64,000 nucleotides of DNA, taken from Bacteroidales bacterium (GTDB lineage Bacteria > Bacteroidota > Bacteroidia > Bacteroidales > NBLH01). Below the pieces are notes generated by a model that saw only the letters and a program-made list of their open reading frames with translations, did not search any database and was not told the DNA's origin. Location: NCBI GenBank assembly GCA_016937695.1, contig JAFGWC010000048.1, positions 61,777 through 125,776 of the forward strand. Reading direction: 5' to 3'. Shown here piece after piece: positions 11,454 to 21,427 of the stretch. The position numbers and the translations under genes were made by a program. Each line of letters begins with the position of its first letter. Position 1 is the first letter of the stretch.

Positions 11454-12050
11454 TTAATTTCTTGCAAATTGAATTAAAGCTGTAAAATCGCCTAAATCGG
11501 CAGCAAAAAGTGCTTTTAAGTAATTTGATCGAGATTTACTTTTTGAACTTAAAATATTACCTCCCCAAGAAAAAATTGGTTTCTCAAATCCTTTTTCAAT
11601 TAAAATATCAGCAATTAATCTTGAGTGTCTTCCATTTCCGTTTGGGAAAGGATGTATATTAACCATTCGGTGTTTAAATCTTATAGCAATTTCATCTTCG
11701 CTAAACACTTTATTCTTTATCCAAAACTGACAATCATCAAATAAGTGTCTTAGTTCTATGCCAATACGGAATTTATCAACACCAATATTTTTGTTTGTTT
11801 TTCTAAACTCGCCTGCCCAACGCCATGTTTGGTCAAACATTTTTTTATGTAATCTTTTTACAAAGGCTTCGCTTAAAATTTCTTCAACAGTAAATTTTTT
11901 CAGCATCGACCATTCAATCGCTTTTTCTATATTTTGTTGCTCAAACTCATCTAACTCGTATCTTGTAGTTATTGTTCTGATGAGGAGCCCTTCTTTCTCT
12001 TCATCGTCAAGAGACGTTTGAGTTTCGGTATATTCAAGTTCTAATCCCAT
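11454..12050 (-). CDS. Fic-family protein ('mobile mystery protein B' type)
   Basis: 198 aa with the Fic motif HPFPNGNGRHSRL. Its start overlaps the upstream HTH gene by 10 nt. Confidence 0.85.
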   Translation of the reverse strand: MGLELEYTETQTSLDDEEKEGLLIRTITTRYELDEFEQQNIEKAIEWSMLKKFTVEEILSEAFVKRLHKKMFDQTWRWAGEFRKTNKNIGVDKFRIGIELRHLFDDCQFWIKNKVFSEDEIAIRFKHRMVNIHPFPNGNGRHSRLIADILIEKGFEKPIFSWGGNILSSKSKSRSNYLKALFAADLGDFTALIQFARN

Positions 12051-12505
12051 AAATATTTTGGCATTTCGCTTTTTATTTTTTCTGCTCTGTCTTGTATTGC
12101 ATGTCTTAATCGCTCAATACTATTTTCCTGATCTTCAAGTTTCATGGTATTTGAGGTTCTGTAAACAATTTGTTCTGCAATTTCATAAGCTCTTTTCTCA
12201 ATCATTGCTTCAAGTGTTTTTTCTTTTGGAATAAAGCCATAAACCAATTTCATGTCAAGTGCATTTCCAACATCTTTTAATGTTTTTAAGGTAATTGAAC
12301 CATTTTTTTCTCTGGTTTCTATTTCCTTAACACTTTGAGCTGTAATGTTTAGTTTATTTCCCAATTGGCGAAGAGTCATTTTTAATGCAGAACGAGTCGA
12401 AAACACCCAGCCTTCAGATGGGATTATCAAATCGTCAATAATTGACAATTTCTGAAATTTTCTATCTAATTGCTCTATTAATAATTTTAACTTTAAATCT
12501 CTCAT
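12041..12505 (-). CDS. XRE-type HTH protein ('mobile mystery protein A' type), probable partner or antitoxin of the Fic protein
   Basis: 154 aa. HTH segment LKMTLRQLGNKLNITAQSVKEIE. Gene order and size fit the A/B pair. Confidence 0.7.
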   Translation of the reverse strand: MRDLKLKLLIEQLDRKFQKLSIIDDLIIPSEGWVFSTRSALKMTLRQLGNKLNITAQSVKEIETREKNGSITLKTLKDVGNALDMKLVYGFIPKEKTLEAMIEKRAYEIAEQIVYRTSNTMKLEDQENSIERLRHAIQDRAEKIKSEMPKYLWD

Positions 12506-14655: not shown

Positions 14656-15480
14656 TTAAAACTCTACAAGTTCACTTTCTTTTAATTTATAAACATGAGC
14701 ACGTAATTTTTGAGCCCATTCAAATTGCGATTTAGATTTATCAAATTTTTTCCAGGAAATAGGCTTTCCTATTGTAACTTTAATAGTTCCGTTTCTTTTC
14801 TGAAACATTTCTTTAGGCAACAAAATTAATTCAATATTAGTTTTAATCCTAAAAAATTTACGGATTCTAAAAATATTTAAAAATAGTTTTGAATTTGTTT
14901 GATGAAAATAAAATGGAACAATATCTCTTTTATGTTGAACTGCTTTTGTTATCATGCTTTTTTGCCAAACGGTATCTTCAACTATTTTTTTATAAGGACG
15001 TGAAACTTCACCGGCAGGGAAATGCGTTATTGGAAAATCAGAAGCGTAAACTTTTTCTAATTCCACAATGTATTCTTTTGGTGATTTGCCATAAGAATTC
15101 ACCGCAGCCACAACTGGATGCATATGAGGAATATACATAAACGAATCGTTTGCAATTGATTTAAATGGCCCAAATTTATCTGAAACAATTTTTGTTAAAA
15201 CTAAGCCATCTATAATCCCAAATGGATGATTTGCAACAAAAAAGCATCTTTTATTTTCAGGTAAATTTTCTAAACCAGTAACATCGGCAGTTATATTAAA
15301 ATCTTGCATAGTGCCATTTATAAAATCTACACCGAACTTGTTTTCCTGAATAGTAAGAACCCTGTTTAATTCATCTTGCATTAGAATTTTTTCAAAAATC
15401 TTCCTTACAAATACCGGTAATTTTTTCAAGAAAGTATAATTACTTTCTCTAAAAATTTTTTCTAAATCAATATATTTCAT
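14656..15480 (-). CDS. lysophospholipid (PlsC-type) acyltransferase family protein
   Basis: 274 aa with the HX4D motif (NHPFGIIDG) and a FPAGEVS block. Confidence 0.65.
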   Translation of the reverse strand: MKYIDLEKIFRESNYTFLKKLPVFVRKIFEKILMQDELNRVLTIQENKFGVDFINGTMQDFNITADVTGLENLPENKRCFFVANHPFGIIDGLVLTKIVSDKFGPFKSIANDSFMYIPHMHPVVAAVNSYGKSPKEYIVELEKVYASDFPITHFPAGEVSRPYKKIVEDTVWQKSMITKAVQHKRDIVPFYFHQTNSKLFLNIFRIRKFFRIKTNIELILLPKEMFQKRNGTIKVTIGKPISWKKFDKSKSQFEWAQKLRAHVYKLKESELVEF

Positions 15481-15684
15481 ATATCTATATTTAAATGATT
15501 TTCATTTATCATTTTGAAATATTTCCTACAGTTTACATATCATCATCATGCAAATTCTTGGTATATATTAGCATGTTAGTTTTATTTAAAAATTCAAAAA
15601 AAAATAATGCGCAATGTACAAAAAACCAATAAGACTTAACCATTAGCAGTAAAATTTATACAGAAAAAATTTATTTTTTTAATT

Positions 15685-15716
15685 TTTGTGAAAGCAAGAA
15701 TATCTTTTTACTTTTG
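15685..15716 (+). promoter_or_regulatory. Bacteroidota-type promoter for tRNA-Arg (-33 TTTG / -7 TAnnTTTG)
   Basis: TTTG is at 15685-15688 and TACTTTTG at 15709-15716 (20-nt spacer). The -7 box ends 15 nt upstream of the tRNA 5' end. Confidence 0.5.
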
Positions 15717-15730
15717 CACAAGTATTTTTT

Positions 15731-15802
15731 GGCCTCATAGTTCAAGGGATAGAATAGAAGTTTCCTAAACTTTAGATACAGGTTCGAGTCCTGTTGAGGC
15801 TA
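15731..15802 (+). tRNA. tRNA-Arg (anticodon CCT)
   Basis: Folded by hand as a cloverleaf. Acceptor stem is GGCCTCA/TGAGGCT (G1-U71). D arm is GTTC/GAAT. Anticodon stem is GAAGT/ACTTT with loop TTCCTAA. T arm is ACAGG-TTCGAGT-CCTGT. Discriminator is A, and no CCA is encoded. Confidence 0.9.
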
Positions 15803-15817
15803 CAAACACTAAACTTT

Positions 15818-15856
15818 GTCGCTGCAAGCACAATGCTTGTGGCGACTTTTTGTTTT
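15818..15856 (+). terminator. intrinsic terminator of tRNA-Arg
   Basis: 12-bp stem GTCGCTGCAAGC / GCTTGTGGCGAC (two G-U pairs) with loop ACAAT, followed by TTTTTGTTTT. Confidence 0.8.
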
Positions 15857-15861
15857 ACAGG
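15819..15861 (+). repeat. direct repeat copy A (overlaps the tRNA terminator)
   Basis: TCGCTGCAAGCACAATGCTTGTGGCGACTTTTTGTTTTACAGG recurs at 19961-20004 with 5 mismatches and 1 indel. Confidence 0.7.
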
Positions 15862-16035
15862 TGCACTGTCCGGCTACTGTTATATTTTGCTATCACTTCA
15901 ACAATATTTTCATTTCACAAATATGTTAAGTCCTTTTTTTGTATTTATTAAAGTTTGAGGCATTTGTTTAACTAAATCACTAATTTTAACAGGTTGATGC
16001 TTTATTATCATCTCTTTAATTTTTTTTGTCTATCA

Positions 16036-16086
16036 TTTAACCCAACTTGAAAATTTTGTTACAAATTTTTCAAGTTGGGTTAAAAT
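16036..16086. repeat. near-perfect ~24-bp-arm palindrome (hairpin/terminator candidate)
   Basis: TTTAACCCAACTTGAAAATTTTGT / ACAAATTTTTCAAGTTGGGTTAAA with one mismatch between arms. It lies downstream of the minus-strand gene 16203..16736. Confidence 0.5.
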
Positions 16087-16202
16087 TAGAATGCTCAGCC
16101 ACGAATATTTTTCGAGCAGTTGTAGCCTTTTCATTCAAAATATATTTAATATAAAATGCTATATGTACTAGTAATCATTTTGTGCATATAAATATATTTG
16201 GA

Positions 16203-16736
16203 TTACTTCGTTTTCTTTTTCTTTGCTTTTCTTTTATTATTGTTTTTGATTTCACCACGGCGCTTTGCTTCATAAGCAAAAAATGCAACAACCATTAATC
16301 CCAGCAAAATCAGTGCTGCCACATCCCAAATCGTAATTACTTTATATTGATTTATGTTTCTCTGTATGTGTATCCTTGGAGCATCAGGCAAGTAGCTTAT
16401 TTCGATACTATCAGTCTCATAGGGCAAGCTGTAATATTCTGAATCTAGGATTTCTTCATGTCTGTAAGTTCTAGAATTTATAGAGTAGTTATATGTGATA
16501 CATTCTTGTGTGGACTCATTAAAGAGGCCATATTTAATACCTGTTTGTTTTTTGAAGAAACGATTTTCGATAGCGGCTTTTATTACAATACCCGATTTTT
16601 TGAGTTGATTGAGTTTGTAAATTTCTTGAGCCAAAAAAACTATCCGCACTAATGAAAATATGGCCAATATAAGAAGAATCATGCTAATTTTTACACTATA
16701 AATTCCTTCTTTACGATTTTTGCTATTCATAGTCAT
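16203..16736 (-). CDS. hypothetical membrane protein (DUF3592-like topology)
   Basis: 177 aa. It has an N-terminal TM, a beta-rich middle (ISYLPDAPRIH), a second TM and a Lys-rich tail. Confidence 0.45.
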   Translation of the reverse strand: MTMNSKNRKEGIYSVKISMILLILAIFSLVRIVFLAQEIYKLNQLKKSGIVIKAAIENRFFKKQTGIKYGLFNESTQECITYNYSINSRTYRHEEILDSEYYSLPYETDSIEISYLPDAPRIHIQRNINQYKVITIWDVAALILLGLMVVAFFAYEAKRRGEIKNNNKRKAKKKKTK

Positions 16737-16995
16737 ATCAATAATTAAATTATTTTCAATATTGCATTTTTAACAACTCCAAGTATATAGGCTGTTGCAG
16801 TTGTTAAAACTCTGTTTATTTTTATTTAGTTTTAAGGTTTATAACTGTTTTTGTCTTTTCCTAAAAGCTTTTTCGTATAAAATCATATATTTATCTGCTT
16901 TTTTTTCATCTGTTTATTTTTTTATTGTTTTTAATTTGTCAGATGTAACATCCACATTTTGAGACATTTGTACGTTGAGCATTTGCTCAGAATAA

Positions 16996-17271
16996 TCATG
17001 CCCTTGTGTGTTTTTTAATAAACATGGATGTTTCATCAATCTTATTAAGCATTTCAATTAGAATATAAATTTCTTCTTTGGCAAAACCGGTACGAGTATA
17101 AAATTTAAATAAATCTTTTAAGAATTCAGTAATCTCTTTTTTAGTAATGGTTTCACTGTTTGGCAGCATTTCCATATTCGGTTATACATATAATTCATAT
17201 ACAGCTTCTGCAGGATCTTTAATTTGTACCATTCCTTCTGGTAAATTATTTTCAAAATCTTCTATATCCAT
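16996..17271 (-). pseudogene. degraded ORF with an in-frame TAA
   Basis: The minus strand reads MDIEDFENNLPEGMVQIKDPAEAVYELYV-TAA-PNMEMLPNSETITKKEITEFLKDLFKFYTRTGFAKEEIYILIEMLNKIDETSMFIKKHTRA. The stop is at 17182-17184. No family was recognised. Confidence 0.35.
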
Positions 17272-17322
17272 TTGTGAAATTTTAAAATTATTTTTTAACG
17301 ATGATTTTTAATAAATGTAAAA

Positions 17323-17359
17323 GTCTTAATCCTTGTTGTAGTGGAATATCTTTTCTGAG
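17323..17359 (-). repeat. orphan CRISPR repeat copy
   Basis: GTCTTAATCCTTGTTGTAGTGGAATATCTTTTCTGAG is identical to the repeat at 18901-18937. The ATPase gene separates it from the array. Confidence 0.8.
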
Positions 17360-17516
17360 ACATAACGTTTAACAATATGAAACGGTTGGGTTTGCGGGCT
17401 GCGTTCCTATCCTCCGTTGGGAAAAGTTGGAGCGAGAACCAATCCTTTAAAAACCACTGATCCCCAACTGTTTTATATTGTGTGTTAACGCCTGGCATTC
17501 CTTCATCTTTTTCCTT

Positions 17517-18686
17517 TTAATAATTTAATCCAAAAGACCAAAGTGGAATAACATTGAGGTAGCCATATTCAATATCATCTTTTACAACAAATGATTTTCC
17601 GTCTTTTTCTATTTGGTCTTGTTGTTTATTTTTTCCTCCAACTTCAAATGTGTAATTATCAATTACAAAATCAGCTTTACTTGAAGAAATTACTTCATTT
17701 TTTACTCGCATTTGATTGAAAAAGAATGTTTCTCTCAAATTTCCAACATTTGATTTATCTCCAACTAAGTTGAAAATGATATTTGTATTATCTAAATACA
17801 CTTTATCAACTTTTCCTAATCCTCGTATTCCACTCGTTTCATTTCTTAACTGTCCAATAAGTCCAGCTTTTTCCATGTAGGAAAAATAATCGTCTAATGA
17901 ATTCCTACTTACACTAATTATTTCGGAAATTTTGGAAAAATTGGGTTTAAATGGCACACTTTCAGCAATAATTGAAAGTAATCGTTTAAGTTTTCGACTT
18001 GTTCCAACATTTAAGTTTGCATATTGTGGAATATCAGATTCTAATGTTTGTACAATTATTTGACCTAAACGTAAATCCATTTCATTTTCAATACCAAAAG
18101 GATAATACCCACGTTTTAAATAATCATTAAATAATGGTAGTGGATGTTGAATATTTTCAAGTTTTACTTCATTATTTATGATTTGTTCTAGGTTGTAAAC
18201 TTCTGTTTCAATATTGTGATATAGTTTTAAATATTCACGAAATGAAAGTCCTTGTAATTTGTAAATTATTGCTCGACGACTTAAATCAGATGAACCTTTT
18301 AGTATGTCAAGTACAGAAGAACCAGTAAAAACAATTTTCAGCGTGGGAAACGAATCATAAATGTTTTTTAATTCACCAGACCAGTCTGAATATTTATGAA
18401 TTTCATCAATAAACAAGTATTCTCCTGCATTTTTATAAAAATTATCAGCTAAATCAAGGAGTCTGTTTTCACTAAAGTACATATCGTCGGCTGATACATA
18501 TAATGCTTTTTTAGTATCCAATTTTTCCTTGATATGTTGTAAAATCATTGTTGTCTTACCGACTCCTCGAGCACCAATAATTCCAATCATTCTGCTATTC
18601 CACGAGACATTTTCATATATATAGCGTTTAAAATCTGTAGTTGTATTTTGTAAAAGCGTCTCAAATTTCTGATATAGTGTTTTCAT
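17517..18686 (-). CDS. AAA+ superfamily ATPase (COG1373-like; AAA_14 plus DUF4143-type C-terminal region)
   Basis: 389 aa. Walker A is GARGVGKTT and Walker B is LFIDEIH. The C-terminal region is typical of this widespread stand-alone ATPase family. Confidence 0.8.
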   Translation of the reverse strand: MKTLYQKFETLLQNTTTDFKRYIYENVSWNSRMIGIIGARGVGKTTMILQHIKEKLDTKKALYVSADDMYFSENRLLDLADNFYKNAGEYLFIDEIHKYSDWSGELKNIYDSFPTLKIVFTGSSVLDILKGSSDLSRRAIIYKLQGLSFREYLKLYHNIETEVYNLEQIINNEVKLENIQHPLPLFNDYLKRGYYPFGIENEMDLRLGQIIVQTLESDIPQYANLNVGTSRKLKRLLSIIAESVPFKPNFSKISEIISVSRNSLDDYFSYMEKAGLIGQLRNETSGIRGLGKVDKVYLDNTNIIFNLVGDKSNVGNLRETFFFNQMRVKNEVISSSKADFVIDNYTFEVGGKNKQQDQIEKDGKSFVVKDDIEYGYLNVIPLWSFGLNY

Positions 18687-18826
18687 AATTTTGAAATATA
18701 TTTTTCACAAAGATACAAAAATGCACAACAAATTAAACAATTATTTTACTTATTGCTAATCCAAATGTGCATCTGGCATTTTTTCCTGCTTGGCGTTAAC
18801 ATTTATATTTACACCATACACGATGC

Positions 18827-18991
18827 GTCTTAATCCTTGTTATAGTGGAATATCTTTTCTGAGACAAGATAAACAACCTATTGATACTTTGATTATCCAG
18901 GTCTTAATCCTTGTTGTAGTGGAATATCTTTTCTGAGGTGAAATGCGTAAAATGTAACGGAACAGGAAATGTAGTCTTAATCCTTGTTGTA
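18827..18991 (-). CRISPR. CRISPR mini-array: 2 full 37-nt repeats, 1 truncated repeat, 2 spacers
   Basis: Repeats are at 18827-18863 (one G>A change), 18901-18937 and 18974-18991 (first 18 nt only). Spacers are unique: 37 nt (18864-18900) and 36 nt (18938-18973). The reverse-complement repeat ends in ATTAAGAC, and a cas2 remnant lies about 100 bp away across an AT-rich leader-like stretch (18992-19091). This supports minus-strand transcription. Confidence 0.8.
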
Positions 18992-19091
18992 AATGCTTAT
19001 TTTTAATTGTTTATAATTTAAATATCTGTAAAACTTAATAAAAACCATTGTTTTTTTTATTTAAAATTTTATTCAAATATAATATTTTTTA

Positions 19092-19388
19092 TCAAAAGAA
19101 TAAAGTATTTTTATTTCCTGCAATTAAATCAAAATCAACCGAATGTCCTATTACTTTCATGCTTTTTACTTCGTTGCTTGATATTGGCACAAGAAATATG
19201 CTGTCGTTGTTATCGTAAACTTCGTTTACTTCTTTAAGTGTTTGGTCTATTTCGTTAAATATTTTATGTTCTAACTCGGCCATATAAATTTATTTTTGAA
19301 TGCGCGTGCAGCCTTTTGTAATAAAGTATTTGGCAATTTGTGTTCTAACTTTATTGTCTTGAATATCGTACATAACTAAAAATAACAT
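19092..19388 (-). pseudogene. cas2: cas2 pseudogene (in-frame TAA plus a probable 1-nt deletion near the start)
   Basis: The minus strand reads (MLF)LVMYDIQDNKVRTQIAKYFITKGCTRIQK-TAA-IYMAELEHKIFNEIDQTLKEVNEVYDNNDSIFLVPIS...KVIG, which is the Cas2 N-terminal signature. The stop is at 19290-19292. ATGTTATTTTAG at about 19377-19388 would read MLFLVMYDI with one more T. Confidence 0.75.
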
Positions 19389-19590
19389 TTTTTCGGGGTG
19401 TTTTTTCGATTTTAAACTTATTTCTAAAATTTTTTTTATCCTTTCTGATAATTCAGGCATATTTTCGATATCTGTTTTGCCGGAATCAATGTTTTTAATT
19501 CCGGCATTTTTTATACGAAAAAGTTTTTCGTGCAGGCTGATATTTACTTTTTTTTGGTCATACCATTTTTTTTTGTGTTATACCGAACTG

Positions 19591-19628
19591 TTATGATGTT
19601 AAGAGATTAAAATCTCTTAACATCATAA
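19591..19628. repeat. 38-bp perfect palindrome
   Basis: TTATGATGTTAAGAGATT-AA-AATCTCTTAACATCATAA, with an 18-bp perfect stem. Confidence 0.85.
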
Positions 19629-19698
19629 AATCCGCAAGTCATCGCATCAATCAGTTAATTAATACCGATTTACATTCATAATTGTAATTTTATGTTAA

Positions 19699-19833
19699 AA
19701 TCACAAAGAAGGATTAATAATTTCGATAGAAGTAATACCTAACTACGAACTTGAAAGCTTAATTCTGTACGTTGGCGAAAGAGTTAAAATTTTAAGCCCT
19801 GAAAACTATAAAGATAAAAAAAAAACTGAGTAA
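19699..19833 (+). pseudogene. C-terminal fragment of a WYL-domain (YafY-like) regulator
   Basis: Translation NHKEGLIISIEVIPNYELESLILYVGERVKILSPENYKDKKKTE* matches the conserved C-terminal end of WYL regulators (..v.pn.eL...iL.fG..vkVl.P..l). Everything upstream is missing. Confidence 0.5.
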
Positions 19834-19960
19834 AGAAATTTCAGATCTATACTTAGGTTTCTAATTCGACACTATCCATTCAATATAAATTTTTGATGAA
19901 ATATTTTGCATTCTAATTCTTATACATATGTTCAGATATATGAATCGACGTTTCCGATAA

Positions 19961-20004
19961 TCGCTAAAAGCAAAATGCTTGTGCCCACTTTTTTGTTTTA
20001 CAGG
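19961..20004 (+). repeat. direct repeat copy B (decayed copy of the tRNA-terminator sequence)
   Basis: TCGCTAAAAGCAAAATGCTTGTGCCCACTTTTTTGTTTTACAGG matches 15819-15861 at about 38/44 positions. Confidence 0.7.
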
Positions 20005-20213
20005 CAAATTTTTAAAAATAAGTCTCTTGCATTTAAAAATGTAATGAAACTTTGTTCTGCAAACCAGCTTACAAAGCGAAAAGGCAAACACACAAATATA
20101 AAAAAAACATTCTGATTTCAAAAAAACATAAATCATTGTATATGAAAAATATAATGCTCACATTTGCATCTTGAGTAAACTTTTTTATTCACCGTTAATT
20201 AATTATTAAACCT

Positions 20214-21427
20214 ATGTCAATAAGTATAATTGGCCGTTCGCTGAATGGTTCAGCAACATTGAAGCTCAATGAAACGGCAGCCATTTTAAAGGCAAAAGGA
20301 GAGCCAATCATCCATTTAAGAGGTGGCGAGCCAAAAGGAAAAGCGCCACTGGATGCAATAACCCGCGCTGCAGCAATGTTGAACGGTGCAGAAATCAGAT
20401 ATTCTCCACCAGATGGAACAGTTGAGGCAAAACAAGCAGTTATAAGATATACTGAGGAGTTTTACCACATGAAGCCAACACCTGAACAAGTAATAGTGTC
20501 AGTTGGCGCAAAACAAGCCTTGTTTTTTGCAATGCAAGCCATTCTAAACCCCCAAGACGAAATTTTATTTCCGGCTCCATATTGGGTAAGTTATATGGAA
20601 ATGGCAAAAATGATTGGAGCCATTGGGGTATTCCTGTTCATGCTGAAGATGGAGGATTCATTCCACGTCTTAAAGATATTGAGCTACGTGTAACATCTTA
20701 CACAAAAGCAATTATACTTAATAGTCCTAATAACCCATCAGGTGCACATTATCCGCCTGAAGTTATAGCAGAAATAGTTAATTTTTGCGAAAAAAAAGGA
20801 ATTTACTTGATAATGGATGATATTTATCACCGTCTGCTGTTCGATGGCAAAAAACCATACAGCGTATATGATTTTGTAAAAAAACACGACAACAATTCAA
20901 AAATCATCATCATCAATGGGGTTTCAAAATTATATGCAATGACAGGCTTGCGTATTGGATGGGCTGTTGCCAACCAAAAAATAATTGAAGTAATGGTAAA
21001 TATTCAAGCGCATACTAACTCTGCGCCATCACCAATATTACAAGCAGCAGCTGCCTGTGCTCTTAACGGGATACAATCAAGTGTTGAGAGTTTAAGACAA
21101 ACACTTGAAAACAATAGAAATGTTATGTATGCAAGATTAAAAGCATTTGAAGGCATTCATGTAACCAAACCGGATGGTACATTTTACATGTTTGCAGATT
21201 TTAGTTCCTATGAAAAAAACTCCATTAAATTGGCAAACTTTATTCTTGAAAAAGTAAGAGTAACAGTTGTTCCCGGCGTTGAATTTGGAAGAGAAGGTTT
21301 CCTTCGCTTGTCATTCAATACAACTATTAAAGACATTACTCAAGGAATTGAAAGAATAAAATGGGCACTTGATCCAAATTCGCCTAACGAGTTATATATT
21401 GGAGAACGTAAATTAGTGAGGGATTGA
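20214..21427 (+). pseudogene. class I/II (aspartate-type) aminotransferase, split by a -1 frameshift in a G-run
   Basis: ORF 20214..20693 ends with ...FPAPYWVSYMEMAKMIGAIG. ORF 20582..21427 continues GIPVHAEDGGF...ILNSPNNPSG...SKLYAMTGLRIGW (PLP-Lys region). The frames switch at GGGG 20625-20628, and a fifth G would give AKMIGAIGGIPVH. Confidence 0.8.

What the first reader, a model, noticed from the sequence alone, without database searches (positions are those of the whole stretch)
15819..20004. 4.2-kb segment downstream of tRNA-Arg(CCT) bracketed by a ~44-nt imperfect direct repeat derived from the tRNA terminator
The sequence TCGCTGCAAGCACAATGCTTGTGGCGACTTTTTGTTTTACAGG (15819-15861) includes the tRNA's terminator hairpin and T-tract. 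It recurs at 19961-20004 as TCGCTAAAAGCAAAATGCTTGTGCCCACTTTTTTGTTTTACAGG (5 substitutions, 1 indel, hairpin partly destroyed).

Everything between the two copies is accessory or decayed:
- a DUF3592-like membrane protein;
- an ORF with an in-frame stop;
- the orphan repeat and the ATPase;
- the mini-array, dead cas2 and WYL stump.

tRNA genes are classic integration targets, and this is the architecture of an old island with att-like duplication. Two things are unusual. The duplicated segment is the terminator rather than the tRNA 3' end, and no integrase is left.
Basis: partly seen in the sequence, partly recalled or inferred. Interest (0 to 1): 0.55.

Follow-up and report, generated by a model that had tools for sequence, protein, structure and literature searches.

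The report
Decayed island beside a tRNA gene
A 4.2-kb stretch of broken CRISPR genes and other accessory DNA just after a tRNA-Arg gene is bracketed by two diverged copies of the tRNA's terminator, which most likely marks an old, now immobile inserted element; this is a fairly ordinary kind of genomic scar.

Summary
Copy 1 (15819-15861) and copy 2 (19961-20004) match at 38 of 44 aligned positions, with sharp edges on both sides. The alignment score is 31, against a maximum of 19 in shuffled sequence.

- **The two copies.** Copy 1 is the intact terminator of tRNA-Arg(CCT). Copy 2 no longer folds.
- **Copy number.** No third copy occurs in about 77 kb of this genome, in 185,579 species genomes, in JGI metagenomes or in IMG/VR.
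- **Content.** The segment holds the remnant of a type III-like CRISPR-Cas locus: cas2 with one in-frame stop, a truncated mini-array, an orphan repeat and a weak WYL/WCX stump. It also holds an intact AAA_14/DUF4143 ATPase, a near-orphan 177-aa membrane protein and a small interrupted ORF.
- **What is missing.** No recombinase remnant was found in any frame, no tRNA fragment is displaced, and base composition is not unusual. An empty site cannot be tested, because the closest relatives share only gene pairs.

The best reading (confidence about 0.5) is the scar of a site-specifically integrated defence island that has lost its integrase. There is a precedent in the same phylum: the Riemerella anatipestifer 10K island has a 53-bp attL/attR that runs from the tRNA-Arg 3' end through a terminator-like hairpin.

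Interest is low.

The parts
15731..15803 (+). tRNA-Arg(CCT), the gene whose terminator is duplicated
   Evidence: ARAGORN. Rfam tRNA match, 64 bits.
15819..15861 (+). Direct repeat copy 1. It is the functional intrinsic terminator (hairpin 15818-15846, T-tract 15847-15856) plus ACAGG, and is the candidate attL.
   Evidence: Fold of -21.1 kcal/mol, z -4.6. Only terminator-like site in 15400-20300.
16036..16084 (.). Palindrome with 24-nt arms (96% complementary), about 120 nt beyond the stop of the 177-aa gene. Probably that gene's terminator.
   Evidence: pair I4.
16203..16736 (-). Intact 177-aa predicted membrane protein, nearly an orphan
   Evidence: No Pfam family. The word-index search found only the protein itself. 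The full HMMER search gave 5 hits at E <= 0.001, of which the query's own cluster and one protein of 38% identity (P0242) are convincing. Weak indirect link to DUF3592.
16996..17271 (-). ORF of about 91 codons, interrupted by one in-frame stop (17184-17182). Function unknown.
   Evidence: Translation. No Pfam, NCBIfam, PHROG or PADLOC family.
17323..17359 (-). Orphan CRISPR repeat
   Evidence: family D1. Weak Rfam CRISPR-DR7 match on the minus strand.
17372..17480 (.). Element of about 110 nt with 19-bp terminal inverted repeats. It is conserved in a Persicobacter plasmid. It is a passenger in the segment, not part of the repeat question.
17517..18686 (-). Intact AAA_14 + DUF4143 ATPase. It matches the PADLOC candidate defence family PDC-S01 and lies between CRISPR repeats.
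   Evidence: A 15-nt inverted repeat flanks it (17483-17497 and 18787-18801).
18827..18991 (-). CRISPR mini-array: full repeats at 18827-18863 and 18901-18937, plus an 18-nt truncated repeat at 18974-18991 on the cas2 side
   Evidence: family D1. Same repeat family as the type III array of Persicobacter pPP6.
19092..19388 (-). cas2, full length but with one in-frame stop (19292-19290)
   Evidence: Pfam CRISPR_Cas2 E 3.6e-12. TIGR01573 E 5.6e-14. PADLOC Cas2 models.
19711..19833 (+). C-terminal stump of a WYL-type regulator (WCX domain). The match is weak.
   Evidence: Pfam WCX E 0.012, 16.4 bits, below the cut-off of 23.9.
19961..20004 (+). Direct repeat copy 2, a decayed copy of the terminator and the candidate attR
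   Evidence: Fold of -5.2 kcal/mol, z +1.15. No tRNA remnant upstream.
20214..21427 (+). Right-flank aspartate-type aminotransferase, which forms a conserved pair with PEPCK. It is frameshifted near 20627.
   Evidence: DNA homology with relatives starts at 20111.

Best explanation
The segment 15862-20004 is the eroded remnant of a mobile defence island. The island once integrated by site-specific (probably tyrosine-recombinase) recombination at an attachment site formed by the intrinsic terminator just downstream of tRNA-Arg(CCT).

Integration duplicated the 43-44-nt attachment sequence.
- **attL (copy 1).** It is the tRNA terminator and still works as one. Its intact hairpin suggests that selection has kept it.
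- **attR (copy 2).** It has no function and has drifted, with substitutions that break the stem.

The cargo included a type III-like CRISPR-Cas locus with a WYL-type regulator. Later deletions removed the integrase, the effector genes, cas1, the leader and most of the array. An AAA_14/DUF4143 ATPase cassette now sits between the repeats.

The element can no longer move.

**What is shown:** the repeat, its significance, its terminator identity and the decayed accessory content.

**What is inferred:** integration by an integrase, the direction of decay, and the loss of the recombinase.
For: - **Repeat.** It is highly significant, in direct orientation, with sharp boundaries on both sides.
- **Position.** It lies immediately downstream of a tRNA gene, the classic integration hot spot (Islander paper PMC4383910).
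- **Content.** Everything between the copies is accessory, lineage-specific or broken: cas2 with a stop codon, a truncated array, a WCX stump, a near-orphan protein and a PDC-S01-type ATPase.
- **Relatives.** The relatives sampled carry none of this content next to either flanking gene pair. Homology with them resumes at 20111, just beyond copy 2.
- **Copy number.** There is no third copy in about 77 kb of this genome, and the sequence does not form a family in any other genome searched.
- **State of the two copies.** Copy 1 folds well and copy 2 does not. Three of the five substitutions in copy 2 are G/C to A, in line with the AT-rich composition of this genome (GC 0.28).
- **Precedent in Bacteroidota.** In the Riemerella anatipestifer 10K island, an IntN1-like tyrosine integrase recombines a 53-bp att. 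That att runs from the tRNA-Arg 3' end through a terminator-like hairpin and its T-tract (PMC6764341; fold).
Against: - No integrase, excisionase or any recombinase fragment was detected in the segment.
- There is no displaced tRNA fragment. The repeat starts 16 nt after the tRNA, so the defining tRNA-fragment signature of such islands is absent.
- GC content and tetranucleotide composition do not differ from the host.
- No empty site or circular junction was observed. Independent assemblies from the two samples all carry the same arrangement.
- The genome-wide copy number of the 44-mer in this organism could not be measured, because the genome seems to be absent from genome contigs.
Confidence: 0.5

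Rival explanations
1. The duplication arose without an integrase. One route is Campbell-type homologous recombination of a circular DNA that happened to carry a copy of the tRNA-Arg terminator, for example DNA excised imprecisely from the same locus in a relative. Another is a local segmental duplication or rearrangement followed by deletions. In either case the repeats are products of recombination, not recognition sites.
For: - No recombinase remnant in any frame.
- Composition indistinguishable from the host, as expected for DNA from the same lineage or a close one.
- The locus has clearly undergone several rearrangements: a truncated repeat, an ATPase lying between repeats, and an orphan repeat.
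- The repeat lies wholly outside the tRNA gene.
Against: - A 44-nt stretch is a short substrate for RecA-dependent recombination.
- A tandem duplication would need exact loss of the second copy of the duplicated block.
- The sharp edges on both sides and the position next to a tRNA are what site-specific integration predicts, and a Bacteroidota precedent exists (PMC6764341).
Confidence: 0.22
2. The two copies are independent members of a lineage-specific dispersed family of terminators or REP-like hairpins. They simply happen to lie 4.1 kb apart, and nothing was inserted as a unit.
For: - The sequence is a hairpin plus a T-tract, the kind of element that can form families.
- Copy 2 lies about 130 nt downstream of the stop of the WCX stump on the same strand, so it could once have been that gene's terminator.
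- The whole genome of this organism could not be scanned.
Against: - No other copy in the 64-kb window or in about 13 kb of extra flank.
- The core 20-mer found only chance matches in 185,579 species genomes, and nothing in viral or JGI metagenome contigs.
- Homology includes 10-15 nt beyond the T-tract (GTTTTACAGG), which a convergent terminator would not share.
- My own rough estimate: if two copies were placed at random in about 77 kb, the chance that they lie within 4.2 kb and in the same orientation is about 0.05.
Confidence: 0.1

Closest known systems
Riemerella anatipestifer 10K genomic island (IntN1-like tyrosine integrase; 53-bp attL/attR at tRNA-Arg), PMC6764341
   Same: - Same phylum (Bacteroidota).
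- The island lies directly downstream of a tRNA-Arg gene.
- The flanking direct repeat contains the 3' trailer, a terminator-like hairpin and the T-tract (fold).
- The island is small (10 kb) and varies by deletion between strains.
   Different: - The Riemerella repeat is perfect. By my reading of its sequence it starts inside the tRNA (about the last 14 nt), and an integrase gene sits next to the tRNA.
- Integration and excision were shown experimentally, and strains with empty sites exist.
- Here the repeat starts 16 nt after the tRNA and is 86% identical.
- Here no integrase is left and no empty site is known.
Islander-type tDNA genomic islands (tyrosine-integrase islands in tRNA/tmRNA genes), PMC4383910; Williams 2002, Nucleic Acids Res 30:866, cited from memory and from the reference list of PMC6764341
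   Same: A tRNA gene at one end, a direct repeat at the other, accessory cargo in between, and a size above the 2-kb lower limit.
   Different: The defining features are a displaced tRNA fragment and an integrase gene. Both were tested here and are absent.
Type III CRISPR-Cas locus of Persicobacter psychrovividus plasmid pPP6 (NZ_AP025298.1)
   Same: - Cas2 is 49% identical.
- The repeats belong to the same family: GTCTTAATCC...GAG, 36 nt there and 37 nt here.
- This identifies what the decayed cargo once was.
   Different: pPP6 has a complete locus: cas1, a primase-polymerase, cas6, RAMP effector genes, csx genes and about 65 repeats. The window keeps only a dead cas2 and three and a half repeats.

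Membership tests
tRNA-targeting integrative genomic island (Islander definition) | Full tRNA/tmRNA gene at one boundary | tested here: met
   tRNA-Arg(CCT) at 15731-15803, 16 nt upstream of copy 1.
tRNA-targeting integrative genomic island (Islander definition) | Displaced fragment of that tRNA gene at the other boundary, in the same orientation | tested here: not met
   The best local match of the tRNA plus its trailer anywhere else in the window scores 16, below the shuffle mean of 18.2. No tRNA-like hit near copy 2 at E <= 10. The repeat covers only the terminator.
tRNA-targeting integrative genomic island (Islander definition) | Tyrosine integrase gene inside the island | tested here: not met
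   A six-frame Pfam scan of 15804-20213 at E <= 1 finds only Cas2. The ATPase ORF, left out of the minus-strand frames, was scanned on its own and shows only ATPase domains. The precomputed Pfam families of the called genes within about 10 kb on either side include no integrase.
tRNA-targeting integrative genomic island (Islander definition) | Flanking direct repeats (attL/attR) | tested here: met
   38 of 44 positions identical, score 31 against a shuffle maximum of 19, sharp edges.
tRNA-targeting integrative genomic island (Islander definition) | Presence/absence polymorphism (an empty site with a single att copy in relatives or in the population) | tested here: inconclusive
   The relatives sampled on both flanks share only gene pairs and have no tRNA beside them. 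Every independent contig that reaches into the segment shows the same arrangement. Scans for the 44-mer in JGI metagenomes and in genome contigs found no related locus.
tRNA-targeting integrative genomic island (Islander definition) | Atypical base composition (supportive, not defining) | tested here: not met
   GC 0.288 against 0.279 for the window. The 4-mer distance ranks 32 of 120 windows of equal size.
Dispersed REP-like or terminator repeat family | Many copies spread over the genome, after unrelated genes | tested here: inconclusive
   Only the two copies occur in about 77 kb, and other genomes give only chance hits. The rest of this organism's genome could not be read.
CRISPR-Cas locus (type III-like) as cargo | cas genes plus a repeat-spacer array | tested here: met
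   Cas2 (Pfam, TIGR01573 and PADLOC). Repeats of 37 nt with 36-37-nt spacers. Same repeat family as the pPP6 type III array. The locus is non-functional: cas2 has a stop codon, and there are no effector genes, no cas1 and no leader.
Casposon or CRISPR-associated transposon (both insert near tRNA genes) | A Cas1 casposase or Tns transposition genes, terminal inverted repeats, and a short target-site duplication (5-15 bp) | tested here: not met
   No such domains in any frame. The flanking repeat is 44 nt and direct. The family features listed are from established knowledge.

The most novel reading that the evidence does not exclude
The attachment site of this element is the intrinsic terminator itself (hairpin, T-tract and a 10-nt tail), not the tRNA gene. 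On that reading it would be the scar of a class of integrative defence islands, here carrying type III CRISPR-Cas, whose recombinase recognises a terminator downstream of tRNA-Arg. Such an element would not need to carry a replacement tRNA fragment.
Probability: 0.12. Interest if true: 0.4.

Novelty: new member of a known kind. Interest (0 to 1): 0.2.

Why it matters
If the reading is right, the locus is a small example of how defence islands, CRISPR-Cas included, arrive at tRNA-linked hot spots and then erode until only the att scar and a few genes remain.

It also shows that island finders which rely on displaced tRNA fragments and integrase genes will miss such relics when the repeat lies only in the tRNA's terminator.

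It opens no major question. The organism is an uncultured Bacteroidales MAG with no close relatives in the collections searched, so the inference cannot be sharpened for now.

Tried and rejected
- **Empty-site search through the left flank.** Acyltransferase homologues reach only 73% and 63% identity. They keep the methyltransferase neighbour but have no tRNA.
- **Empty-site search through the right flank.** Aminotransferase homologues reach 82-90% identity. They keep PEPCK but have different upstream genes and no tRNA, and their upstream DNA shows no similarity to copy 2.
- **Scans for the 44-mer.**
  - IMG/VR: 0 hits.
  - Genome contigs: 39 chance hits.
  - JGI metagenomes: 0 hits.
- **Search for an intact relative of the cargo.**
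  - Cas2 in JGI metagenomes: none.
  - CRISPR repeat in IMG/VR: none.
  - tRNA 3' end in IMG/VR: none.
  - The whole segment against plasmids and phages: only short local hits.
- **Recombinase remnants.** None in the six-frame Pfam scan. No phage-like families in PHROGs.
- **A tRNA remnant upstream of copy 2.** None.
- **A replication-origin-like skew switch at about 20 kb.** Rejected. The skew simply follows gene orientation across the window.
- **The high GC of the aminotransferase-PEPCK pair as a sign of foreign origin.** Rejected. The same pair is GC-richer than its surroundings in relatives too.
- **The 110-nt element as the CRISPR leader.** Rejected. It is absent from the array flanks of the related pPP6 locus.
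- **An exact look-up of the window's ATPase.** It failed, probably because the assemblies differ at four positions inside that gene.
Full report
**Observation**

Copy 1 (15819-15861, 43 nt) and copy 2 (19961-20004, 44 nt) align with 38 identities, 5 substitutions and one extra T in the T-run. With 60 nt of flank added on each side the alignment does not grow, so both edges are sharp.

The local score of 31 compares with 16 for the next-best match in the whole 64-kb window. In 150 dinucleotide-preserving shuffles the mean is 14.7, the sd 1.1 and the maximum 19. The repeat is therefore homologous, not a chance match.

Copy 1 starts 16 nt after tRNA-Arg(CCT) at 15731-15803. It is a 12-13-bp hairpin followed by TTTTTGTTTT, folds at -21.1 kcal/mol (z -4.6), and is the only terminator-like site predicted between 15400 and 20300. 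Copy 2 folds at -5.2 kcal/mol, no better than shuffled sequence.

All six differences lie in the 5' 29 columns, and the 3' 15 nt (TTTTTGTTTTACAGG) are identical. By my own arithmetic this distribution is not significant: (29/44)^6 is about 0.08.

**Source**

The window is 99.98% identical to contig JAFGNL010000267.1 of a Bacteroidales MAG, GCA_016927025.1. Contigs assembled independently from SRR13394436 and SRR13394437 match the window wherever they overlap it. They break inside the tRNA and inside the CRISPR repeats.

**What lies between the copies**

Listed in order of coordinates:

- a 24-bp-arm palindrome at 16036-16084;
- an intact 177-aa membrane protein with no Pfam family. Apart from its own cluster, only one convincing homologue (38% identity) turned up among 1.8 billion representative proteins.
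- an ORF of about 91 codons with one in-frame stop and no family;
- an orphan CRISPR repeat at 17323-17359;
- a 110-nt element with inverted-repeat ends (see 'Noticed in passing');
- an intact AAA_14 + DUF4143 ATPase that matches the PADLOC candidate defence family PDC-S01;
- two full CRISPR repeats and one truncated repeat at 18827-18991;
- a full-length cas2 with a single in-frame stop;
- a perfect 18-bp-arm palindrome at 19591-19628;
- a weak C-terminal WCX (WYL-regulator) stump at 19711-19833.

The best annotated relative of the Cas2 (49% identity) is in a complete type III locus on Persicobacter psychrovividus plasmid pPP6. That locus has a 36-nt repeat, GTCTTAATCCCTTTTGTATTGGATGCTGACTCGGAG, clearly of the same family as the 37-nt repeat here.

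The segment is thus mainly the wreck of a type III-like CRISPR-Cas locus plus a few accessory genes. That is the character of a defence island.

**Tests of the island interpretation**

1. **Recombinase.** A six-frame translation of 15804-20213, scanned against Pfam at E <= 1, shows only Cas2. The ATPase ORF was left out of the minus-strand frames and, scanned separately, shows only ATPase domains. The precomputed Pfam families of the called genes within about 10 kb on either side include no integrase.
2. **Displaced tRNA fragment.** None. The best match of the tRNA plus its trailer elsewhere in the window scores below random expectation. A permissive Rfam scan upstream of copy 2 finds no tRNA.
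3. **Composition.** GC is 0.288 against 0.279 for the window. Of 120 windows of equal size, 32 are at least as far from the window's tetranucleotide profile. The compositional outlier is the aminotransferase-PEPCK pair to the right, and that pair is GC-richer than its surroundings in relatives as well.
4. **Is the 44-mer a family?** There is no third copy in the window or in about 13 kb of additional flank.
   - Its 20-nt core matched 39 places in 185,579 species genomes. All are single hits in unrelated taxa, and none extends beyond the pattern.
   - Longer patterns found nothing in IMG/VR or in JGI metagenomes.
   - This organism's own genome did not appear among the hits. It is evidently not in that collection, so its genome-wide copy number remains untested.
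5. **Empty site.** It cannot be obtained.
   - The closest acyltransferase homologues (73% and 63%) keep the neighbouring methyltransferase but have other genes, and no tRNA, on the other side.
   - The closest aminotransferase homologues that were looked up (90% and 87% identity; hits down to 82% were listed) keep PEPCK but have unrelated upstream genes and no tRNA. Their DNA homology with the window begins at 20111 or 20200, about 100-200 nt beyond copy 2.
   - In these relatives gene order is conserved only at the level of gene pairs.

**Interpretation**

The architecture is what site-specific integration leaves behind: a tRNA gene, a sharply bounded direct repeat, accessory and decayed cargo, the second repeat, and then conserved housekeeping genes.

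That has a close precedent in the same phylum. The 10K genomic island of Riemerella anatipestifer is integrated and excised by an IntN1-like tyrosine integrase at a 53-bp att site at tRNA-Arg (PMC6764341). By my reading of its sequence, that site runs from about the last 14 nt of the tRNA through a 9-bp hairpin and a T-tract (fold). The present repeat differs in that it starts 16 nt after the tRNA.

I therefore favour a relic of an integrated defence island (about 0.5). The functional terminator is kept at attL and a drifting copy sits at attR. Three of the five changes in copy 2 are G/C to A, as expected in a genome of 28% GC.

The classical definition of tRNA-linked islands requires a tRNA fragment and an integrase (PMC4383910). 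The segment fails both tests, so it should not be filed as a member of that class, only as something that looks like its scar.

Two rivals remain:
- an integrase-free duplication by homologous or illegitimate recombination (about 0.22);
- two independent members of a lineage-specific terminator family (about 0.1).

The remainder is unassigned.

**Noticed in passing**

- Between the orphan repeat and the ATPase lies a 110-nt element with 19-bp terminal inverted repeats. It is 78.5% identical over 128 nt to an unannotated stretch of Persicobacter plasmid pPP2, and no Rfam family matches it.
- The ATPase gene is flanked by a 15-nt imperfect inverted repeat. It also carries four of the five differences between two assemblies of this region.
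- The aminotransferase is frameshifted at about 20627 in the window. The split gene calls in the other assemblies agree with this.

**Verdict**

It is a new example of a known kind of feature, and its interest is low.

Noticed in passing
window 17372-17480: An element of about 110 nt with 19-bp terminal inverted repeats (AACAATATGAAACGGTTGGG ... CCCCAACTGTTTTATATTGT) lies between the orphan CRISPR repeat and the stop of the ATPase gene. It is 78.5% identical over 128 nt to an unannotated intergenic stretch of Persicobacter psychrovividus plasmid pPP2 (NZ_AP025294.1, 323258-323385). There too it sits just 3' of an unrelated gene. The plus strand folds at -41.1 kcal/mol (z -3.6). No Rfam family matches it. 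It is present once in the window and is absent from the pPP6 CRISPR leader. It could be a MITE-like element or a structured RNA.
   Followed up: partly
window 17483-18801: The AAA_14/DUF4143 ATPase gene lies between CRISPR repeats and is flanked by a 15-nt imperfect inverted repeat (TGTTAACGCCTGGCA / TGCTTGGCGTTAACA). It looks like a cassette inserted into the former array. Four of the five differences between the window and the NCBI assembly of the same region fall inside this gene (17652, 17656, 17829, 17835), which suggests paralogues or population variants.
   Followed up: partly
window 20214-21427 (shift near 20627, at a GGGG run): The aspartate-type aminotransferase is split by a frameshift, yet it is 90-94% identical to an intact homologue on both sides of the shift. 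The split gene calls in the NCBI assembly and in two Logan contigs are consistent with the same frameshift. It is either a very recent pseudogene, a recoding site or a systematic sequencing error.
   Followed up: partly
window 18974-19388: The CRISPR repeat nearest cas2 keeps only 18 nt, so a deletion removed the leader and part of the first repeat. The cas2 gene has a single in-frame stop at 19292-19290 but is otherwise full length. The repeat and Cas2 belong to the family of the type III locus on Persicobacter plasmid pPP6, which carries a primase-polymerase gene.
   Followed up: yes
window 16036-16084 and 19591-19628: Two strong palindromes lie inside the segment. One has 24-nt arms (96% complementary) and the other has perfect 18-nt arms. 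Their function was not examined; they may be terminators of the neighbouring minus-strand genes.
   Followed up: no
L002 and L003 (window about 15763-15773): Logan contigs from both samples end inside the tRNA-Arg gene, near the anticodon, and not at the repeat. This fits k-mers shared with tRNAs of other community members rather than an island-free variant.
   Followed up: partly
window 11454-12505: A Fic-domain protein with a small overlapping upstream ORF lies about 3 kb to the left of the tRNA. It may be a toxin-antitoxin-like pair. It was seen only in the precomputed Pfam list.
   Followed up: no
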